Positions 13,038 through 23,523 of a stretch of DNA of 25,289 nucleotides are shown here, piece after piece. This DNA comes from a virus (Duplodnaviria > Heunggongvirae > Uroviricota > Caudoviricetes). Under the pieces are notes generated by a model. That model did no database searches and had not been told where the DNA came from. It worked only from the letters and a program-made list of their open reading frames with translations. The translations under genes and the position numbers were made by a program. How positions within the stretch are numbered: the stretch's first letter is position 1; each line of letters starts with the position of its first letter. The stretch is taken from the IMG/VR virus record IMGVR_UViG_2531839265_000001, positions 1 to 25,289 of that record; one strand, written 5' to 3'.

Positions 13038-13193
13038 TTACTTCTCAGATTCGTAGTCCACGAAGACAGCAACCTCCGTCTGGCCGGTTCGGATTCGTAC
13101 CTCGCAGAGGTCTTTCCTCGTTACCAGTGCCGTCACTATGACGGTTAAACAGATGACGATCAGGGCGATTAACATCGCCTTTTGCTGCTTCAT
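13038..13193 (-). CDS. hok: Hok/Gef-family type I toxin (51 aa)
   Basis: MKQQKAMLIALIVICLTVIVTALVTRKDLCEVRIRTGQTEVAVFVDYESEK has the Hok TM segment and CE.R motif. AGGAG RBS before the ATG at 13193. A 9-bp perfect hairpin at 13002-13023 follows the stop. Confidence 0.9.
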   Translation of the reverse strand: MKQQKAMLIALIVICLTVIVTALVTRKDLCEVRIRTGQTEVAVFVDYESEK

Positions 13194-13530
13194 AGCCTGC
13201 TTCTCCTTGCCTTTCGACACGTAAGAGGCTAACCTACATTTGTGAGACGTAGATTGGGCCTCAGATTAATGTTAAGCGTCCTGCAAGACGCGTAATGTTA
13301 ACTGGGGCTTTTCTCTGTTTGCCTTACAGTGGCATGCCCGAGGCAGACAGCCTCAAGCACCCGCAGCAATCTTACCGACACCGATAAGAAAACGCTATTT
13401 TTATTGCCAGCACCATCTATCCAGGCTAATTTATCTGCGTCAGAACGGCGCAATGCGCTCGCCTGAGATACGTTTACTTGCCATGGTAACAACAGATAAC
13501 GGCAATTGTTGTTTCTGTTTTGTTTCCTTC

Positions 13531-18956: not shown

Positions 18957-19363
18957 ATGGATACAAAAATTTAACCATTGGCGAACGCATTAGATATCGC
19001 CGAAAAAACCTCAAATACACCCAAAGGTCTCTTGCTAAAGCCTTGAAAATTTCTCATGTGTCGGTTTCACAATGGGAACGGGATGATAGCGAACCTACAG
19101 GGAAGAATCTTTTTGCACTTAGCAATGTACTGCAGTGCTCGCCAACATGGATTCTATTTGGCGATGAAGACAAGCAACCATCACCACCTATTGAGGATCC
19201 AGTTACTTTATCCCCCAAAGAACACGAGCTCCTTGAACTTTTTAATGCATTGCCTGAATCAGAACAGGACGCTCAGCTCACCGAGATGCGCGCCCGAGTA
19301 AAAAATTTCAACAAACTCTTTGAAGAATTATTAAAAGCCCGTCAACGAACAAACAAAAGATAA
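18957..19363 (+). CDS. dicA: CI-like repressor DicA (HTH_XRE), N-terminus broken by a 1-nt frameshift in an A5 run at 18965-18969
   Basis: Track ORF 19043..19363 plus in-frame upstream text ...NLTIGERIRYRRKNLKYTQRSLAKALKISHVSVSQWERDDSEPTGKNLFALSNVLQCSPTWILFGDED... matches DicA. ATG at 18957 reads MDTKI-stop as given; one extra A gives MDTKNLTIGER.... Confidence 0.8.
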
Positions 19364-19423
19364 CACAATCAATGTGTTATCTTTTTTGTTGCTAAAAATG
19401 TTAGCCATAACAAACAAAAACAC

Positions 19424-19452
19424 TTGACCACGCTGTTAGTCATGACTAATCT
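19424..19452 (+). promoter_or_regulatory. early-left promoter with second operator copy: -35 TTGACC (19424-19429), palindrome GTTAGTCATGACTAAT (19435-19450), -10 TAATCT (19447-19452)
   Basis: Operator lies within the 17-nt spacer, the classic arrangement for repressor occlusion. Drives ydfA, ydfB, dicF and dicB. Confidence 0.55.
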
Positions 19453-19529
19453 TATTTACATCAAGACACCGCACGGTGTTCTCAGCAAACAGTTCCGCTC
19501 CCCCGGCGTTAAGGGGAAATGAGGTCAAC

Positions 19530-19682
19530 ATGGATACTATCGATCTTGGCAACAACGAATCTCTGGTGTACGGCGTGTTTCCCAACCAGGACGGCACATT
19601 CACCGCGATGACGTATACCAAAAGCAAAACGTTTAAAACCGAATCTGGCGCGCGTCGCTGGTTAGCCAGAAACACTGACTGA
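19530..19682 (+). CDS. ydfA: YdfA-like small protein (50 aa)
   Basis: GAGGT RBS then ATG: MDTIDLGNNESLVYGVFPNQDGTFTAMTYTKSKTFKTESGARRWLARNTD. Confidence 0.55.
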   Translation: MDTIDLGNNESLVYGVFPNQDGTFTAMTYTKSKTFKTESGARRWLARNTD

Positions 19683-19693
19683 TGAGGTTGGCG

Positions 19694-19900
19694 ATGGAAT
19701 TTAAAGATTTACCTCCAGACACTCAGAAAATCGCCGCAGAAACACTGAAATCTCTCATTTTGGACGGGGGGACAGAAAAGGTAGAGCCAGCTAAAAAAAA
19801 CTGGCTCAAGAAATCAGAGAAGCCTTTATTGCTCTTTATCAGTCTTCTCCATAGCGGCTTGTTTTTCTTCTTTCAATATATTGCGAATTGTAATAACTGA
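19694..19900 (+). CDS. ydfB: YdfB-like small protein; ORF extends to 68 aa, the 3' third overlapping a convergent minus-strand gene
   Basis: GAGG RBS then MEFKDLPPDTQKIAAETLKSLILDGGTEKVEPAKKNWLKKSEKP.... Confidence 0.45.
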   Translation: MEFKDLPPDTQKIAAETLKSLILDGGTEKVEPAKKNWLKKSEKPLLLFISLLHSGLFFFFQYIANCNN

Positions 19901-20011
19901 ATTGGCCGCCTCTGAAGGGGATGACATTTTGCCAGCCCGAATTAACTCAACTGTTAAGTTCAAAGCTGCAACAGATGGATAGGTAAATGGGTTAATTAAC
20001 TTGTCTGACAT
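19826..20011 (-). CDS. small protein (61 aa) with strong RBS, convergent with and overlapping the ydfB-like ORF (possibly YdfC-like)
   Basis: GGAGGA RBS, then MSDKLINPFTYPSVAALNLTVELIRAGKMSSPSEAANSVITIRNILKEEKQAAMEKTDKEQ. ATG at 20011 chosen over the track GTG at 20083. Confidence 0.5.
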   Translation of the reverse strand: MSDKLINPFTYPSVAALNLTVELIRAGKMSSPSEAANSVITIRNILKEEKQAAMEKTDKEQ

Positions 20012-20334
20012 TTTATCCTCCATTGAGGTTACTGGTTGAGAATGGAGACCACACGTGACAGCGTGTTGTCGTGCGCCGGACACGGATAAGAATCCGGCAC
20101 TGACAGTTTACTGAAAGGATATATCCCTGAAAAGTCAGGGCATAACGCGAAAGCGCACGGCGGAGGTGTCTTTTCCTTAGAAGGCTTGTCGTTAGATTTC
20201 TTCGATTGTGCGCTTCCGGTTGTGGCACTCCGCGAAATGGCGCGGCGGTAAGTATGGCGGGGTTATTCCTTCCCCGTTGAGGACACCGGGTTGTCAGGTT
20301 GACCATACGCTTAAGTGACACCCCCGCTGCAACA

Positions 20335-20400
20335 ACCCATGTTGATTACCTTTTGGCGGGTATCCGTTTTTGTTTTCCCTTGTGATACCCGCCCTTTTTA
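20335..20400 (+). ncRNA. dicF: DicF-like small RNA (terminator hairpin 20355-20393 plus T-run)
   Basis: Sits between ydfB/C and dicB as in Qin. TTGGCGGGTATC...GATACCCGCCCTTTTT parallels the remembered K-12 DicF 3' end, and the flanking AAAGTGAATTTTGTGATG text matches the K-12 dicF-dicB spacer as I recall it. 5' end unknown. Confidence 0.4.
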
Positions 20401-20582
20401 AAGTGAATTTTGTGATGCGGTGAATGCGGCTCAGCGCACGCGGAACAGTTAAAAAGGCCAGTTGGCTTCCGTATTGGTTCTTATGGGTGGGTTCTCTGTA
20501 TCCGGCGTTAATTGTTAACTGGTTAACGTCACCTGGAGGCACCAGGCACCGTATCACAAAATTCATTGTTGAGGACGCGATA

Positions 20583-20765
20583 ATGGAAACGTTATTACCA
20601 AACGTTAATACGTCTGAAGGTTGTTTTGAAATTGGTGTCAGAATCAGTAACCCTGTATTTACTGAAGATGCCATTAATAAGAGAAAACACGAACGGGAGC
20701 TATTAAATCAAATATGCATTGTTTCAATGCTGGCCCGTTTACGCCTGATGCAAAAAGGACGCTGA
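20583..20765 (+). CDS. dicB: cell-division inhibitor DicB
   Basis: GAGGA RBS then METLLPNVNTSEGCFEIGVRISNPVFTEDAINKRKHERELLNQICIVSMLARLRLMQKGR, nearly identical to remembered E. coli DicB. Confidence 0.85.
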   Translation: METLLPNVNTSEGCFEIGVRISNPVFTEDAINKRKHERELLNQICIVSMLARLRLMQKGR

Positions 20766-20767
20766 CA

Positions 20768-20971
20768 ATGAATACAGCATTTGCTCTCGTTCTGACAGTT
20801 TTTCTTAATACAGGCGAGCCAGTCGATCTTGTTATTGGTATACATGACTCAATGAAAGAATGCATGGCTGCCGCAGCGGAACAGAAAATTCCTGGCAACT
20901 GTTATCCGGTTGATAAAGTTATTCGCATGGACAATAACGAAATCCCGGCAGGACTTAAAACAGCACCGTAA
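20768..20971 (+). CDS. ydfD: YdfD-like small secreted protein (DUF1482-like)
   Basis: MNTAFALVLTVFLNTGEPVDLVIGIHDSMKECMAAAAEQKIPGNCYPVDKVIRMDNNEIPAGL with an N-terminal hydrophobic segment. Confidence 0.65.
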   Translation: MNTAFALVLTVFLNTGEPVDLVIGIHDSMKECMAAAAEQKIPGNCYPVDKVIRMDNNEIPAGLKTAP

Positions 20972-21051
20972 TTAATATCCGGTTTCATTTTTATATGCCA
21001 GCAATGGCAGGGATTTGTTCACCCTTAAATCTGTAATGAGGTTAAAACAAA

Positions 21052-23523
21052 ATGAGTAAAGTCTTTATTTGCGCCGCCATTCCGGACGAACAGGCAATAA
21101 AGGAAGAAGGGGCAGTCGCTGTAGCCACTGCCATTGAAGCCGGTGACGAACGTCGCGCCCGTGCCAAATTTACCTGGCAATTCCTGGAGCAATATCCGGC
21201 TGCTCAGGACTGCGCTTATAAATTTCTTGTCTGCGAGGATAAACCCGGCATGCCCCGCCCTGCCATCGACTCCTGGGATACCGAATATATGCTGGAAAAC
21301 CGCTGGGATGAGGAAGGCGCTTCCTTTGTCCCGGTCGAACCAGAATCCGATCCGATGAACGTCAATTTTGACAAGCTGTCCCTTGAAGTACAGAACGCGG
21401 TCCTGGTTAAGTTCGGTACATGTGAAAACATCACCGTTGATATGGTGATTAGTGCACAGGAATTGTTGCAGGAGGACATGGCAACATTCGACGGGCATAT
21501 CGTTGAGGCATTGATGAAAATGCCTGAAGTTAACGTCATGTATTCAGAACTAAAGCTGCTCGCCATCGGGTGGGTTAAACATAAATGTAAGCCGGGTGCA
21601 AAATGGCCTGAGATCCAGACAGAATTACGCACCTGGAAAAAACGTCGCGAAGCCGAACGCAAGGAAACCGGGAAATACACGTCTGTTGTTGATCTTGCCC
21701 GCGCCAGAGTCAACCGACAGCACACTGAAAACTCAGCAGGAAAAATCAACCCCGCCACTGCCGCCATTCGTCGCGAATACAAGCAGACATGGAAAACGCT
21801 GGATGAAGAACTGGCCTACGCTCTGTGGCCTGGCGATATTAATGCCGGAAACATTGACGGCAGCATCCATCGCTGGGCAAAAAATGAAGTTATCGACAAA
21901 GATCGCGAAGACTGGAAGCGCATTTCCGCATCAATGCGCAAACACCCCGATGCCGTTCGCTACGACCGTCAGACTATTTTTGGCCTTGTCCGTGAGCGTC
22001 CGATCGACATTCACAAAGATCCCGTGGCACTGAACAAATACATCACTGAATACCTGGCGACAAAGGGCGTGTTTGAAGATGAAGGAACAAATCAGAGCGC
22101 AACTGATACTCTCTCGTCGCCAGTACCAGAAACTGATGCAGTGGAAACGGCAATTCCGGACAACGAAAAAATCGAATGCAAAGTGGAAGTCGAACCATCT
22201 GTAGAGCGTGAGGGGCCGTTCTACTTCCTCTTCACAGATAAGGATGGCGAAAAATATGGTCGTGCAAACAAACTTTCTGGTCTGGATAAGGCGCTGGCTG
22301 CCGGGGCTACTGAAATCACGAAAGAAGAATATTTCGCCCGCAAAAACGGTACATACTCAGGTTCACAACAAAATACTGGTGCATCTGACACGACCGCACA
22401 ACCAGAGCCGGTAAAAGTTACCACTGACGAAGTAAACAAAATTATGCAGGCAGCCAATATCAGCCAGCCTGACGCCGATGTACTGCTTGCAGTATCACGT
22501 GGTGAATTTGTTGTAGGGGTTAGCGATCCGAATGATCCGAAATGGGTGAAGGGGATTAAAACCCGCGATTCTGTGAACCAGAACCAGCAAGAAACAGAAC
22601 AGAACGACCAGAAAGCGGAACAAAACAGCTCAAATGCGTTACAAAACGAGCCAGAAACGAAACAGCCTGAACCAGAAGAGCAACAAGAACCGGAAAAAGT
22701 CTGTACCACCTGCGGTCAGACCGGCAGCGGTAACTGCCCTGATTGCGGCACTGTGATGGGCGACGCAACATACCAGGAAACATTCGATGAAGAGAATCAG
22801 GTTGAAGTTCAGGAAAATGATCCGGAGGAAATGGAAGGCGCTGAACATCCACACAAGGAGAACCCTGGCGGCAATCAGCATCACGCCAGCGATAATAAAA
22901 CTGGCGAGGCGACAGATCCCTTAATTAAGGTGAATGGTCATCATAAGCTCACATCCACCAGCAGAGCGGGGATTCATCTGATGATCGACCTTGAAACCAT
23001 GGGAAAAAATCCCGATGCCCCGATTATCTCAATAGGCGCAATATTTTTCGATCCACAAACCGGAGATATGGGACCGGAATTTAGCAAGACCATCGATCTG
23101 GATACTGCTGGCGGAGTCATTGATCGTGACGTCATTAAATGGTGGCTGAAGCAATCACGTGAAGCGCAGTCTGCCATTATGACCGATGAAATCCCGTTAG
23201 ATGATGCACTACTGCAATTGCGGGAATTTATCGACGAAAACTCCGGTGAATTTTTTGTTCAGGTCTGGGGTAATGGGGCCAACTTCGACAACGTGGTTTT
23301 ACGCCGTTCATACGAACGACAGGGTATCCCCTGCCCGTGGCGCTACTGCAACGATCGCGATGTACGCACAATCGTTGAGCTGGGGAAAGCCATAGACTTC
23401 GATGCCAGAACGGCTATTCCATTCGAAGGTGAGCGCCATAATGCACTTGATGACGCTCGTTACCAGGCAAAATACGTTTCAGCTATCTGGCAAAAACTGA
23501 TCCCGAGTCAGGCTGATTTTTAA
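21052..23523 (+). CDS. large YdfE-like protein (823 aa) with C-terminal DexA-type DEDDh 3'-5' exonuclease domain
   Basis: GAGGTT RBS. C-terminal about 180 aa carry DEDDh motifs IDLETMG, WGNGANFD and HNALDDARY and resemble T4 DexA. Upstream are a CTTCGQTGSGNCPDCG zinc-ribbon-like motif and a Q/E/N-rich acidic linker. N-terminus MSKVFICAAIPDEQAIKEEG... matches the truncated YdfE of K-12 as I recall it. Confidence 0.7.
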   Translation: MSKVFICAAIPDEQAIKEEGAVAVATAIEAGDERRARAKFTWQFLEQYPAAQDCAYKFLVCEDKPGMPRPAIDSWDTEYMLENRWDEEGASFVPVEPESDPMNVNFDKLSLEVQNAVLVKFGTCENITVDMVISAQELLQEDMATFDGHIVEALMKMPEVNVMYSELKLLAIGWVKHKCKPGAKWPEIQTELRTWKKRREAERKETGKYTSVVDLARARVNRQHTENSAGKINPATAAIRREYKQTWKTLDEELAYALWPGDINAGNIDGSIHRWAKNEVIDKDREDWKRISASMRKHPDAVRYDRQTIFGLVRERPIDIHKDPVALNKYITEYLATKGVFEDEGTNQSATDTLSSPVPETDAVETAIPDNEKIECKVEVEPSVEREGPFYFLFTDKDGEKYGRANKLSGLDKALAAGATEITKEEYFARKNGTYSGSQQNTGASDTTAQPEPVKVTTDEVNKIMQAANISQPDADVLLAVSRGEFVVGVSDPNDPKWVKGIKTRDSVNQNQQETEQNDQKAEQNSSNALQNEPETKQPEPEEQQEPEKVCTTCGQTGSGNCPDCGTVMGDATYQETFDEENQVEVQENDPEEMEGAEHPHKENPGGNQHHASDNKTGEATDPLIKVNGHHKLTSTSRAGIHLMIDLETMGKNPDAPIISIGAIFFDPQTGDMGPEFSKTIDLDTAGGVIDRDVIKWWLKQSREAQSAIMTDEIPLDDALLQLREFIDENSGEFFVQVWGNGANFDNVVLRRSYERQGIPCPWRYCNDRDVRTIVELGKAIDFDARTAIPFEGERHNALDDARYQAKYVSAIWQKLIPSQADF

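What the first reader, a model, noticed from the sequence alone, without database searches (positions are those of the whole stretch)
20084..20765. DicF-like sRNA and DicB cell-division inhibitor retained downstream of an about 500-bp structured non-coding stretch
A strong terminator hairpin (20355-20393 plus T-run) in the position of dicF precedes an almost canonical dicB. The hairpin body differs from the K-12 DicF as I remember it, so target specificity (ftsZ and others) may differ. The region 20084-20330 has no convincing ORF and may hold the processed 5' part of the sRNA precursor.
Basis: partly seen in the sequence, partly recalled or inferred. Interest (0 to 1): 0.45.

Follow-up and report, generated by a model that had tools for sequence, protein, structure and literature searches.

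The report
New allele of DicF/KilS prophage sRNA
In front of the cell-division inhibitor gene dicB, at the position where E. coli K-12 carries the small RNA gene dicF, this prophage carries a different, undescribed small-RNA hairpin, one of many interchangeable versions found at this position in related phages.

Summary
A strong terminator hairpin (20355-20393, then T5) lies 184 nt upstream of a genuine dicB (20583-20765), inside about 570 nt with no credible ORF.

The flanks are 95-96% identical to the K-12 Qin dicF locus. The RNA body (20334-20388) is only 51% identical. It gets no Rfam DicF hit even at E<=10, and it has lost predicted pairing to ftsZ, xylR, pykA and manX.

A survey of about 230 phage and prophage loci shows at least seven hairpin classes at this position. 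They share the stem base GGCGG/CCGCC followed by U5. Their 5' tails, their loops and the downstream kill gene (dicB or kilR) reassort.
- Class 1 is DicF (4057 of 5426 E. coli genomes).
- Class 2 is the Rac-prophage sRNA KilS (2217 genomes).
- The window's class occurs in 156 genomes, and I found no description of it.

Its loop core UUUCCC(UU) recurs in three different stems, which suggests a seed.

Most likely it is both an attenuator for dicB and an Hfq-type sRNA with non-DicF targets. Expression and targets are untested.

The spacer just upstream (20229-20328) is a conserved RNA fold with a predicted pseudoknot. It is also present in the phage P1 ban-operon leader. Its function is unknown.

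The parts
20066..20228 (+). 5' part of the non-coding spacer, homologous to the K-12 Qin ydfC-dicF spacer. Homology with Qin starts here; the genes further upstream are unrelated.
   Evidence: 83% identity to K-12 over 20066-20199, against 41% over 19700-20060. No Pfam-supported ORF.
20229..20328 (+). Conserved structured RNA block. Helix A 20230-20234/20241-20245. Helix B 20258-20262/20272-20276. Helix C 20288-20296/20316-20324. Predicted pseudoknot GUAUGG 20252-20257 with CCAUAC 20303-20308. Function unknown.
   Evidence: About 95% identical to K-12. Also found in the P1/P7/RCS47 ban-operon leader, Salmonella phage F1055, phage 2H10 and Stx2c phages. On 81 distinct sequences 96.2% of cells pair, against 36-53% when partners are slid. 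Four pairs change on both sides. Further compensatory helix-B variants are visible by eye.
20329..20354 (+). Variable 5' tail of the sRNA (...CAACAACCCAUGUUGAUUACCUUUU). The processing site corresponding to the DicF 5' end is predicted near 20346-20350. This is an inference.
   Evidence: Aligns with the K-12 segment that holds the RNase E-made DicF 5' end (PMC5069750). The same tail occurs with a different hairpin class in 7 other loci, including L148, L173 and L175.
20355..20399 (+). sRNA body and intrinsic terminator: 10-bp stem, 19-nt loop CGUUUUUGUUUUCCCUUGU (20365-20383), then C and U5. This is hairpin class H3.
   Evidence: Fold z = -5.2. No Rfam DicF hit. The class is present in 156 of 5426 complete E. 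coli genomes. The loop core UUUCCC(UU) is shared with L155 and with Citrobacter braakii L269 in different stems.
20395..20582 (+). dicB leader. A long-range duplex 20395-20422 x 20547-20575 closes a branched domain. It pairs the terminator U-tail with the dicB Shine-Dalgarno GAGGA (20571-20575). By position it is the likely RNase III substrate that gives the 72-nt DicF form in K-12 (inference).
   Evidence: -77.6 kcal/mol, z = -5.8. 94-96% identical to K-12 Qin and also shared with the Rac kilR leader. Sub-threshold Rfam STnc100 match, 34 bits against a cut-off of 47, E = 1.8e-5.
20583..20765 (+). dicB, the cell-division inhibitor (60 aa).
   Evidence: Pfam DicB 127.5 bits. 92% identical to K-12 DicB. 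Annotated as dicB in the near-identical strain SC407.
20768..20971 (+). ydfD-like DUF1482 gene, the next gene of the operon.
   Evidence: Pfam DUF1482 80.9 bits.
19530..19682 (+). ydfA-like DUF1391 gene, the first gene of the early-left operon downstream of the DicA-like repressor gene.
   Evidence: Pfam DUF1391 100.4 bits. Same gene order as K-12 Qin.

Best explanation
The hairpin at 20355-20399 is an undescribed allele (class H3) of the prophage sRNA position that holds DicF in Qin-type prophages and KilS in Rac-type prophages.

Shown:
- It occupies the same position between the same conserved flanks.
- It keeps the shared stem base and U-tail.
- Its 5' tail and loop differ from both DicF and KilS.

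Inferred mechanism:
- Transcripts of the repressor-controlled early-left operon, or of a weak internal promoter like the one proposed for KilS, either stop at this hairpin or read through it.
- Stopped transcripts, trimmed at the 5' end near 20346-20350, give a roughly 50-nt RNA with a 3' U-tail. This RNA would bind Hfq and pair with mRNAs through its exposed U/C-rich loop (core UUUCCC, anti-Shine-Dalgarno-like).
- Its targets differ from those of DicF, and ftsZ is probably not among them.
- Read-through transcripts fold the leader duplex, which hides the dicB ribosome-binding site and offers an RNase III site. The hairpin therefore also works as an attenuator that limits DicB.
For: - Positional homology. 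The flanks are 95-96% identical to K-12 dicF and the body is 51% identical.
- Hairpin stability, z = -5.2.
- All 44 distinct hairpins found at this position fold, at -10 to -24 kcal/mol, and nearly all keep the same stem base. There is one compensatory base change, GGUGG/CCACC, in L003.
- Two alleles at this position are experimentally established Hfq-associated sRNAs. DicF: PMC5069750. KilS: annotated b4833 in K-12, supported by northern blot and RIL-seq (PMC8175672).
- DicF pairs with ftsZ and pykA through its 3' region, which here forms the hairpin loop and 3' arm (PMC5069750). Hairpin-region seeds therefore have a precedent at this position.
- The H3 loop core UUUCCC(UU) is kept in three different stem backgrounds: the window, L155 and Citrobacter braakii L269.
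- The loop is 19 nt, far larger than a terminator needs.
- Pairing test. Real DicF ranks xylR 2nd, pykA 3rd and ftsZ 11th of 139 K-12 start regions. The window RNA ranks them 94th, 69th and 88th.
- The leader duplex is conserved in front of both dicB and kilR.
Against: - There are no expression, Hfq-binding or target data for this allele.
- My target test covers only 139 genes. It uses a home-made accessibility model, and that model ranked the known DicF target manX only 56th of 139.
- No target in the window stands out from background.
- The U-tail is only 5 nt.
- One allele class (H7) is a minimal 6-bp terminator, so a large loop is not essential at this position.
- The shared loop motif could have spread by recombination rather than being kept by selection.
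- The simple scan predicts no internal promoter.
Confidence: 0.6

Rival explanations
1. The hairpin is only an intrinsic terminator or attenuator that limits read-through into dicB. Its interior varies neutrally and it has no trans-acting role.
For: - The invariant parts across alleles are the terminator features: the GGCGG/CCGCC base and the U-run.
- Class H7 is a bare 6-bp terminator.
- The P1 version is a plain UUCG-loop terminator.
- No significant target was found.
Against: - A 19-nt loop is unnecessary for termination.
- The loop core UUUCCC(UU) recurs in three different stems.
- The two studied alleles at this position, DicF and KilS, are both Hfq-associated sRNAs (PMC5069750, PMC8175672).
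Confidence: 0.27
2. It is a diverged but functional DicF orthologue that still represses ftsZ.
For: - Same position, same operon with dicB, similar size and architecture.
- A weak G-U-rich pairing of the loop with the ftsZ Shine-Dalgarno region can be drawn: -6.9 kcal/mol hybrid energy.
Against: - No Rfam DicF hit at E<=10, whereas K-12 DicF scores 76.7 bits and a half-diverged allele (L003) still scores 61.1.
- Net predicted ftsZ interaction is -3.7 kcal/mol, rank 88 of 139. DicF gives -9.8, rank 11.
- Both the loop and the 5' tail that carry the DicF pairing sites are replaced.
Confidence: 0.08
3. The conserved non-coding stretch encodes a small protein: the 36-aa ORF 20208-20315 (phrog_8854), or an N-terminally extended DicB starting at ATG 20424.
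For: - The ORF 20208-20315 matches phrog_8854 at E = 3e-14.
- The ORF 20424-20765 is open and in frame with dicB.
Against: - 1-nt indels (CCCC versus CCCCC) and other length changes that are not multiples of three lie inside the first ORF in many loci.
- Changes there are compensatory for RNA helices.
- No Pfam hit. Nothing is annotated in K-12.
- K-12 has a 14-nt deletion inside the second ORF.
Confidence: 0.03

Closest known systems
DicF sRNA of the Qin prophage (Rfam RF00039)
   Same: - Same position: conserved spacer upstream, the same leader and dicB downstream.
- Same stem base GGCGG/CCGCC followed by CUUUUU.
- Similar size and architecture, a short 5' tail plus a large-loop terminator hairpin.
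   Different: - The 5' tail (UUUCUGGUGACGUUU in DicF) and the whole hairpin interior are replaced.
- No Rfam hit.
- Predicted pairing to ftsZ, xylR, pykA and manX is lost.
KilS sRNA of the Rac prophage (b4833; Bar et al. 2021, PMC8175672)
   Same: - It occupies the homologous position.
- It ends at the same CCGCCCUUUUU and is followed by the same leader, there in front of kilR.
- This shows that non-DicF alleles at this position can be real Hfq-associated sRNAs.
   Different: - Different tail and loop (class H2).
- The Rac locus lacks most of the upstream conserved block.
- The one reported KilS target, yncL, was not tested here.
AsxR/AgvB 'anti-sRNA' family of EHEC lambdoid prophages (Tree et al. 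2014, PMC4104026)
   Same: Short (51-60 nt) prophage sRNAs at a fixed position in the phage genome. Related copies share one conserved part and differ in a variable pairing part.
   Different: - Different locus: the moron site downstream of PR'.
- No sequence relationship was tested or is claimed.
- There the 3' part is conserved and the 5' part varies. Here both the tail and the loop vary.
'dicF-like region' in the phage P1 ban-operon leader (AF234172.1, 68791-68892)
   Same: It shares the upstream structured block at 76-81% identity, with compensatory changes. The block is again followed by an intrinsic terminator in a repressor-controlled early operon.
   Different: The P1 terminator is a plain UUCG-loop hairpin. 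It is followed by tRNA genes and the ban operon, not by a kill gene.
Rfam STnc100 (RF02076)
   Same: The dicB leader 20392-20615 matches the whole model, with the same outer long-range stem.
   Different: The score is 34 bits, below the curated cut-off of 47. It is a resemblance, not membership.
HK022 put antiterminator RNAs (PMC9378689)
   Same: Considered for the upstream block: a structured cis RNA downstream of an early promoter and upstream of terminators, in phages where no N-like gene is visible.
   Different: No sequence similarity to the HK022 immunity region, only chance-level short matches. The predicted fold also differs: three helices plus a pseudoknot, against two stem-loops. This is only an analogy.

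Membership tests
DicF (Rfam RF00039) | Covariance-model score at or above the gathering cut-off of 48 bits | tested here: not met
   No DicF hit in the window at gathering, nor at E<=10 on 1001 nt or 216 nt. Positive controls: K-12 76.7 bits, L003 61.1 bits, L237 55.5 bits.
DicF (Rfam RF00039) | Location in the dicB operon, between the ydfC-type spacer and dicB | tested here: met
   The flanks are 95-96% identical to K-12 on both sides of the RNA body. dicB is confirmed.
DicF (Rfam RF00039) | 3'-region sequence that pairs with the ftsZ ribosome-binding site (PMC5069750) | tested here: not met
   The hairpin interior is replaced. Predicted ftsZ interaction is -3.7 kcal/mol, rank 88 of 139, against -9.8 and rank 11 for DicF. 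This is a prediction only.
DicF (Rfam RF00039) | 5' region that pairs with xylR (PMC5069750); predicted site here CUGGUGACGUUU | tested here: not met
   The tail is UUACCUUUU instead. xylR ranks 94th of 139, against 2nd for DicF.
DicF/KilS-type prophage sRNA position (defined in this report) | Terminator hairpin with base GGCGG/CCGCC followed by CUUUUU and then the AAAGUGAAUUUUGUGAUG leader of a kill gene | tested here: met
   Window 20355-20417 has all these elements. The same frame holds DicF, KilS and at least five other hairpin classes.
KilS (b4833) | Sequence similarity of the RNA body to K-12 KilS | tested here: not met
   The three-way alignment shows only the stem base and the leader shared. 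The window belongs to class H3, not H2.
Hfq-dependent base-pairing sRNA | Stable transcript, Hfq binding, seed-dependent regulation of targets | not testable with these tools
   Only sequence features are available: an intrinsic terminator with a U5 tail and a U-rich accessible loop.
Intrinsic (Rho-independent) terminator | G+C-rich stem immediately followed by a U-run | tested here: met
   10-bp stem with 7 G-C pairs, then C and U5. -18.5 kcal/mol.
HK022 put-type antiterminator (for the upstream block) | Sequence or structure similarity to putL/putR | tested here: not met
   blastn-short against HK022 25000-30500 gives only matches of 13 nt or less, best E = 0.05-0.6. The put sequences themselves were not available to me, so the test is indirect.

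The most novel reading that the evidence does not exclude
The dicF/kilS position is a hypervariable, modular 'seed cassette' of temperate enterobacterial phages. Conserved flanks hold interchangeable 5' tails and hairpin loops, and each combination redirects an Hfq-type sRNA to a different set of host mRNAs. The window's UUUCCC-loop allele would be an uncharacterised regulator.

In addition, the block with a predicted pseudoknot just upstream (20229-20328), shared with the phage P1 ban leader and always followed by a terminator, would be a new cis-acting RNA element. It would control termination or processing at that terminator, working like an antiterminator or a riboswitch.
Probability: 0.3. 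Interest if true: 0.65.

Novelty: new member of a known kind. Interest (0 to 1): 0.45.

Why it matters
DicF is a textbook prophage sRNA that blocks cell division and affects metabolism and EHEC virulence. Published surveys that I could read counted only copies more than 99% identical to it (PMC5069750). The paper that defined KilS never mentions DicF (PMC8175672).

If DicF, KilS and the window's RNA are alleles at one position, three things follow.
- 'dicF copy number' in pathogens under-counts a larger repertoire of prophage regulators.
- Genomes with dicB but a non-DicF allele, about 3% for this class, should not be assumed to repress ftsZ through an RNA.
- The position offers a natural experiment in how sRNA seeds are exchanged.

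The conserved upstream block may explain how read-through into the toxic genes dicB and kilR is controlled.

Tried and rejected
- Rfam at gathering and at E<=10 on three nested regions. There was no DicF hit. The only other weak hits were STnc100 (sub-threshold, in the leader) and a tRNA-like mascRNA match at E = 2.2, which I treat as chance. ARAGORN finds no tRNA there.
- Full-length RNAduplex of each allele against ftsZ. It was uninformative because it ignores intramolecular structure. I replaced it with an accessibility-corrected scan that has positive controls.
- Search for a target of the loop inside the 25-kb window. The best sites, -20.5 to -17 kcal/mol, are what 150 kb of K-12 background predicts for that many windows.
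- Internal sigma-70 promoter. The scan found none on the + strand in 19300-21100. A TAGATT at 20193-20198 aligns with the region upstream of the KilS 5' end, but it has no -35 element. This remains an inference only.
- put-like antiterminator. No similarity to the HK022 immunity region.
- Riboswitch-like alternative pairing between the block and the terminator. Long-range alternatives exist. In K-12 the minimum-energy fold pairs GGCGGUAAGUAUGGCGGGG with the 3' half of DicF. In the window the terminator conformer is 8.6 kcal/mol better. I make no claim from this.
- Literature. Faubladier & Bouche 1994, Melson & Kendall 2019 and Murashko & Lin-Chao 2017 are not held. I therefore cannot exclude that the 1994 paper already showed some variant sequences.
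- K-12 CPS-53 as the home of the H2 allele. This was wrong. It is the Rac prophage.

Full report
OBSERVATION.

GGCGGGTATC (20355-20364) and GATACCCGCC (20384-20393) form a perfect 10-bp stem around a 19-nt loop, CGTTTTTGTTTTCCCTTGT. The stem is followed by C and TTTTT (20394-20399). As RNA it folds at -18.5 kcal/mol, z = -5.2, and none of 200 shuffles does as well.

dicB lies at 20583-20765. It scores 127.5 bits against Pfam DicB and is 92% identical to K-12 DicB. A DUF1482 (ydfD-like) gene follows it. A DUF1391 (ydfA-like) gene lies upstream.

The window is the early-left arm of a lambdoid prophage. Its closest relative in the genome collection is integrated next to ompW and carries lysis and terminase genes.

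HOMOLOGY WITH K-12.

Alignment with the K-12 Qin dicA-dicB region shows a cassette pattern.
- 19700-20060: 41% identity, which means unrelated.
- 20066-20199: 83%.
- 20200-20333: 95%.
- 20334-20388: 51%, with 8 gap columns.
- 20389-20441: 96%.
- dicB: 92%.

The hairpin therefore occupies the dicF position, but its body has been replaced.

IS IT DicF?

Rfam gives no DicF match in the window, either at the gathering score or at E<=10 on 1001 nt and on 216 nt. In the same kind of scan K-12 DicF scores 76.7 bits. An allele that keeps only the DicF 3' half (L003) still scores 61.1 bits.

I built an accessibility-corrected pairing test. It combines duplex energy with the opening energies of both RNAs. 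I ran it on 139 K-12 translation-start regions taken from three 50-kb stretches.
- Genuine DicF ranks its validated targets xylR 2nd, pykA 3rd and ftsZ 11th.
- manX, which DicF regulates by an unusual Hfq-dependent mechanism (PMC5861419), ranks 56th.
- The window RNA ranks ftsZ 88th (-3.7 kcal/mol), xylR 94th, pykA 69th and manX 75th.

Membership in the DicF family fails, and DicF function is not predicted.

WHAT THE POSITION HOLDS ELSEWHERE.

I made two exact-pattern scans of viral contigs and one scan of species-representative genomes. Together they gave about 230 copies of the frame.

The 75 nt upstream of TTTTT-AAAGTGAATTTTG comprise 67 distinct sequences. The hairpins comprise 44 distinct sequences. 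All of them fold, at -10 to -24 kcal/mol.

I sorted them into classes that share the base GGCGG...CCGCC-CUUUUU. Counts are from the viral-contig sample.
- H1, DicF: 98 loci.
- H2: 56 loci.
- H4: 23 loci.
- H3, the window's class: 12 loci.
- H5, H6 and H7: 5 loci each.
- Singletons make up the rest.

The 5' tails are modular as well.
- The window's tail also occurs with an H4 hairpin in 7 loci (for example L148, L173, L175).
- The DicF tail also occurs with H5 and H7 hairpins.

The downstream kill gene reassorts too.
- H1 goes with dicB 93 times and with kilR twice.
- H2 goes with kilR 53 times.
- H3 goes with dicB 7 times and with kilR once.
- H4 goes with dicB 8 times, with kilR 4 times and with neither 10 times.

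H2 is the Rac-prophage copy, between sieB and kilR. In K-12 it is annotated as the sRNA KilS, b4833. KilS was found by Hfq RIL-seq and confirmed by northern blot. Its reported target is yncL, and it may have its own promoter. The paper that defined it does not mention DicF (PMC8175672). The three-way alignment shows that DicF, KilS and the window RNA end at the same CCGCCCUUUUU and are followed by the same leader.

Counts in 5426 complete E. coli genomes:
- the DicF-type query is found in 4057 genomes;
- the KilS-type query in 2217 genomes;
- the window's hairpin in 156 genomes, or 213 with the wider 91-nt query, which also picks up tail-sharing relatives.

Outside E. coli, the frame was found in E. 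albertii, E. ruysiae, Shigella flexneri and Citrobacter braakii. It is also present in plaque-forming or inducible phages such as mEp460, Tritos, PPompW and Stx2 phages. The only phage record with the H3 allele is PP818812.1, where it precedes a Kil gene.

A POSSIBLE SEED.

Within class H3, the loop run GUUUUCCC does not vary in the copies seen. The core UUUCCC(UU) also appears in two other stem contexts.
- L155 combines a DicF-type stem with the loop AUUUUUGUUUUCCCUU.
- C. braakii L269 has GGCGGUAUCAGC-AUUUCCCUU-GCUGAUACCGUC.

Retention of one loop motif in three stems argues that the loop is a functional module. DicF pairs with ftsZ and pykA through its 3' region, which here forms the hairpin loop and 3' arm (PMC5069750), so there is a precedent at this position. 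The motif is complementary to purine-rich, Shine-Dalgarno-like AAGGGAAA sequences.

I could not scan a whole genome. Within the window, no site exceeds what background predicts.

THE LEADER.

The stretch 20395-20600 folds at -77.6 kcal/mol, z = -5.8. A 28-bp long-range duplex (20395-20422 with 20547-20575) closes a branched domain. It pairs the terminator's U-tail with the dicB Shine-Dalgarno GAGGA (20571-20575).

Its position fits the RNase III cut that produces the 72-nt DicF form in K-12 (PMC5069750, PMC9438474). That link is my inference.

The leader matches Rfam STnc100 over the whole model, but below the cut-off: 34 bits against 47.

THE UPSTREAM 'STRUCTURED' STRETCH.

By energy alone, 20066-20345 is unremarkable, z = -1.6. 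But 20229-20328 is nearly invariant among Qin-type loci. It also recurs at 76-82% identity in several other phages.
- The ban-operon leaders of P1, P7 and RCS47. There it starts about 45 nt downstream of the C1-controlled ban promoter. It overlaps a feature that the P1 annotators called 'dicF-like region'.
- Salmonella phage F1055.
- Phage 2H10 and the Stx2c phages carry it at 89-91% identity.

In every case an intrinsic terminator of unrelated sequence follows 20-35 nt later.

I propose three helices and a pseudoknot, with coordinates given in the parts list. On 81 distinct sequences:
- 96.2% of cells form standard pairs, against 36-53% when partners are slid by 1-3 columns;
- four pairs change on both sides, which only 2 of 500 shuffles reach;
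- the proposed pseudoknot is 99.6% paired and shows G-C to A-U and U-A to C-G changes.

Helix B has further compensatory variants that MAFFT misaligns: CUGGGG/CUCCAG, CGAGG/CCUCG, CAGGGG/CCCCUG and CUGGG/CCCAG.

The number of independent events is small, so I call the fold supported, not proven. G-U pairs favour the + strand.

A 36-aa ORF across the block matches phrog_8854. Frequent 1-nt indels inside it argue against coding.

The function is unknown. There is no similarity to the HK022 put region and no Rfam family.

MECHANISM: SHOWN VERSUS INFERRED.

Shown:
- positional homology to dicF and kilS;
- a stable terminator hairpin;
- loss of the DicF sequence determinants;
- a conserved leader duplex that covers the dicB ribosome-binding site;
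- modular reassortment at the position.

Inferred:
- transcription from the repressor-controlled early-left promoter;
- termination at 20399 and 5' trimming near 20346-20350;
- Hfq binding;
- loop-mediated pairing to unknown mRNAs;
- attenuation of dicB.

My confidence is about 0.95 that this is an allele at the dicF/kilS position. It is about 0.8 that it terminates transcription, about 0.55-0.6 that it yields a trans-acting sRNA, and about 0.7 that it does not regulate ftsZ.

NOVELTY.

The kind is known: prophage sRNAs in front of kill genes (DicF 1989-2016, KilS 2021). A 1994 paper that I could not read reported dicF-related prophage sequences. The P1 annotators also noted a 'dicF-like region'.

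In the papers available to me I did not find any of the following:
- this allele;
- the statement that DicF and KilS are alleles at one position;
- the tail/loop/kill-gene reassortment;
- the predicted pseudoknot fold of the upstream block.

I therefore rate it a new member of a known kind, of moderate interest.

CAVEAT ON THE WINDOW SEQUENCE.

Three homopolymer runs differ by one base from relatives.
- The loop has T5, where every genome copy listed and SC407 (L002) have T6.
- The A-run at 19804-19811 differs in length from SC407.
- An A5 run at codon 4-5 of the dicA-like repressor gene, where K-12 has A6, shifts the reading frame.

These may be assembly errors. If the last one is real, the operon's repressor is inactivated.

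Noticed in passing
window 18958-19363 (+): The DicA-like repressor gene is frameshifted at its fourth or fifth codon. The window reads ATGGATAC-AAAAATTTAA where K-12 dicA reads ATGGAAACAAAAAATTTAAC, so the A-run is A5 instead of A6. The remaining ORF starts at TTG 19043 and lacks the first 20 positions of the helix-turn-helix profile. It is either a real pseudogene, which would derepress the toxic operon, or a homopolymer sequencing error.
   Followed up: partly
window 20367-20371; 19804-19811: Two more homopolymer runs differ by one base from relatives. The loop has T5, where every genome copy listed and SC407 (L002) have T6. The A8 run at 19804-19811 changes the frame of a hypothetical ORF relative to strain SC407. 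Together with the dicA site, this suggests homopolymer errors in the assembly.
   Followed up: partly
window 20229-20328 (+); L271 (phage P1) 1498-1597; L273 (P7); L274 (Salmonella phage F1055): A conserved RNA block of about 100 nt with three helices and a predicted pseudoknot. It is shared by Qin-type prophages and by the ban-operon leader of P1-family phages, and it always lies just upstream of an intrinsic terminator. There is no Rfam family and its function is unknown.
   Followed up: partly
window 19829-20011 (-): A 61-aa ORF on the opposite strand sits where K-12 has ydfC. It is convergent with the operon. It matches phrog_17494 and phrog_27767 (unknown function) and has no Pfam hit. 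A hairpin at 19784-19807 with a T8 run on the minus strand looks like its terminator.
   Followed up: partly
L243 (K-12 Rac) 5406-5503 (-) compared with window 20208-20223: The 5' end of KilS (GUGGGAGUGCGCCUCCGGUUG) corresponds to GTGCGCTTCCGGTTG in the window. Rac lacks the roughly 120-nt block that follows in Qin-type loci. If the window had a similar start site, its primary transcript would be about 190 nt.
   Followed up: no
L001 (K-12 Qin) 2762-2940: In K-12, the minimum-energy fold of block plus DicF pairs GGCGGUAAGUAUGGCGGGG of the block with the 3' half of DicF, instead of forming the terminator. This may be relevant to processing or termination control, or it may be a folding artefact.
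   Followed up: no
PP818812.1 (L270) 2501-2587: The only phage-collection record with the window's allele is labelled 'Actinobacillus phage vB_Apl-pPE4'. Yet it carries E. coli-type DicA, YdaT, Kil and exonuclease VIII genes, so the host label looks doubtful.
   Followed up: no
window 13188-13362 (-); 5610-5919 (-): A sok antitoxin RNA (112.5 bits, part of a hok/sok module) and a cluster of tRNA-Gly, tRNA-Thr and tRNA-Met lie in the late region of the prophage.
   Followed up: no
window 20330-20336 and equivalent positions in other alleles: The precursor just upstream of the tail carries CAACAAC or CACAACA, which resembles the GcvB target consensus CACAACA cited for AgvB (PMC4104026). This would matter only if the mature RNA starts upstream of 20330.
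   Followed up: no
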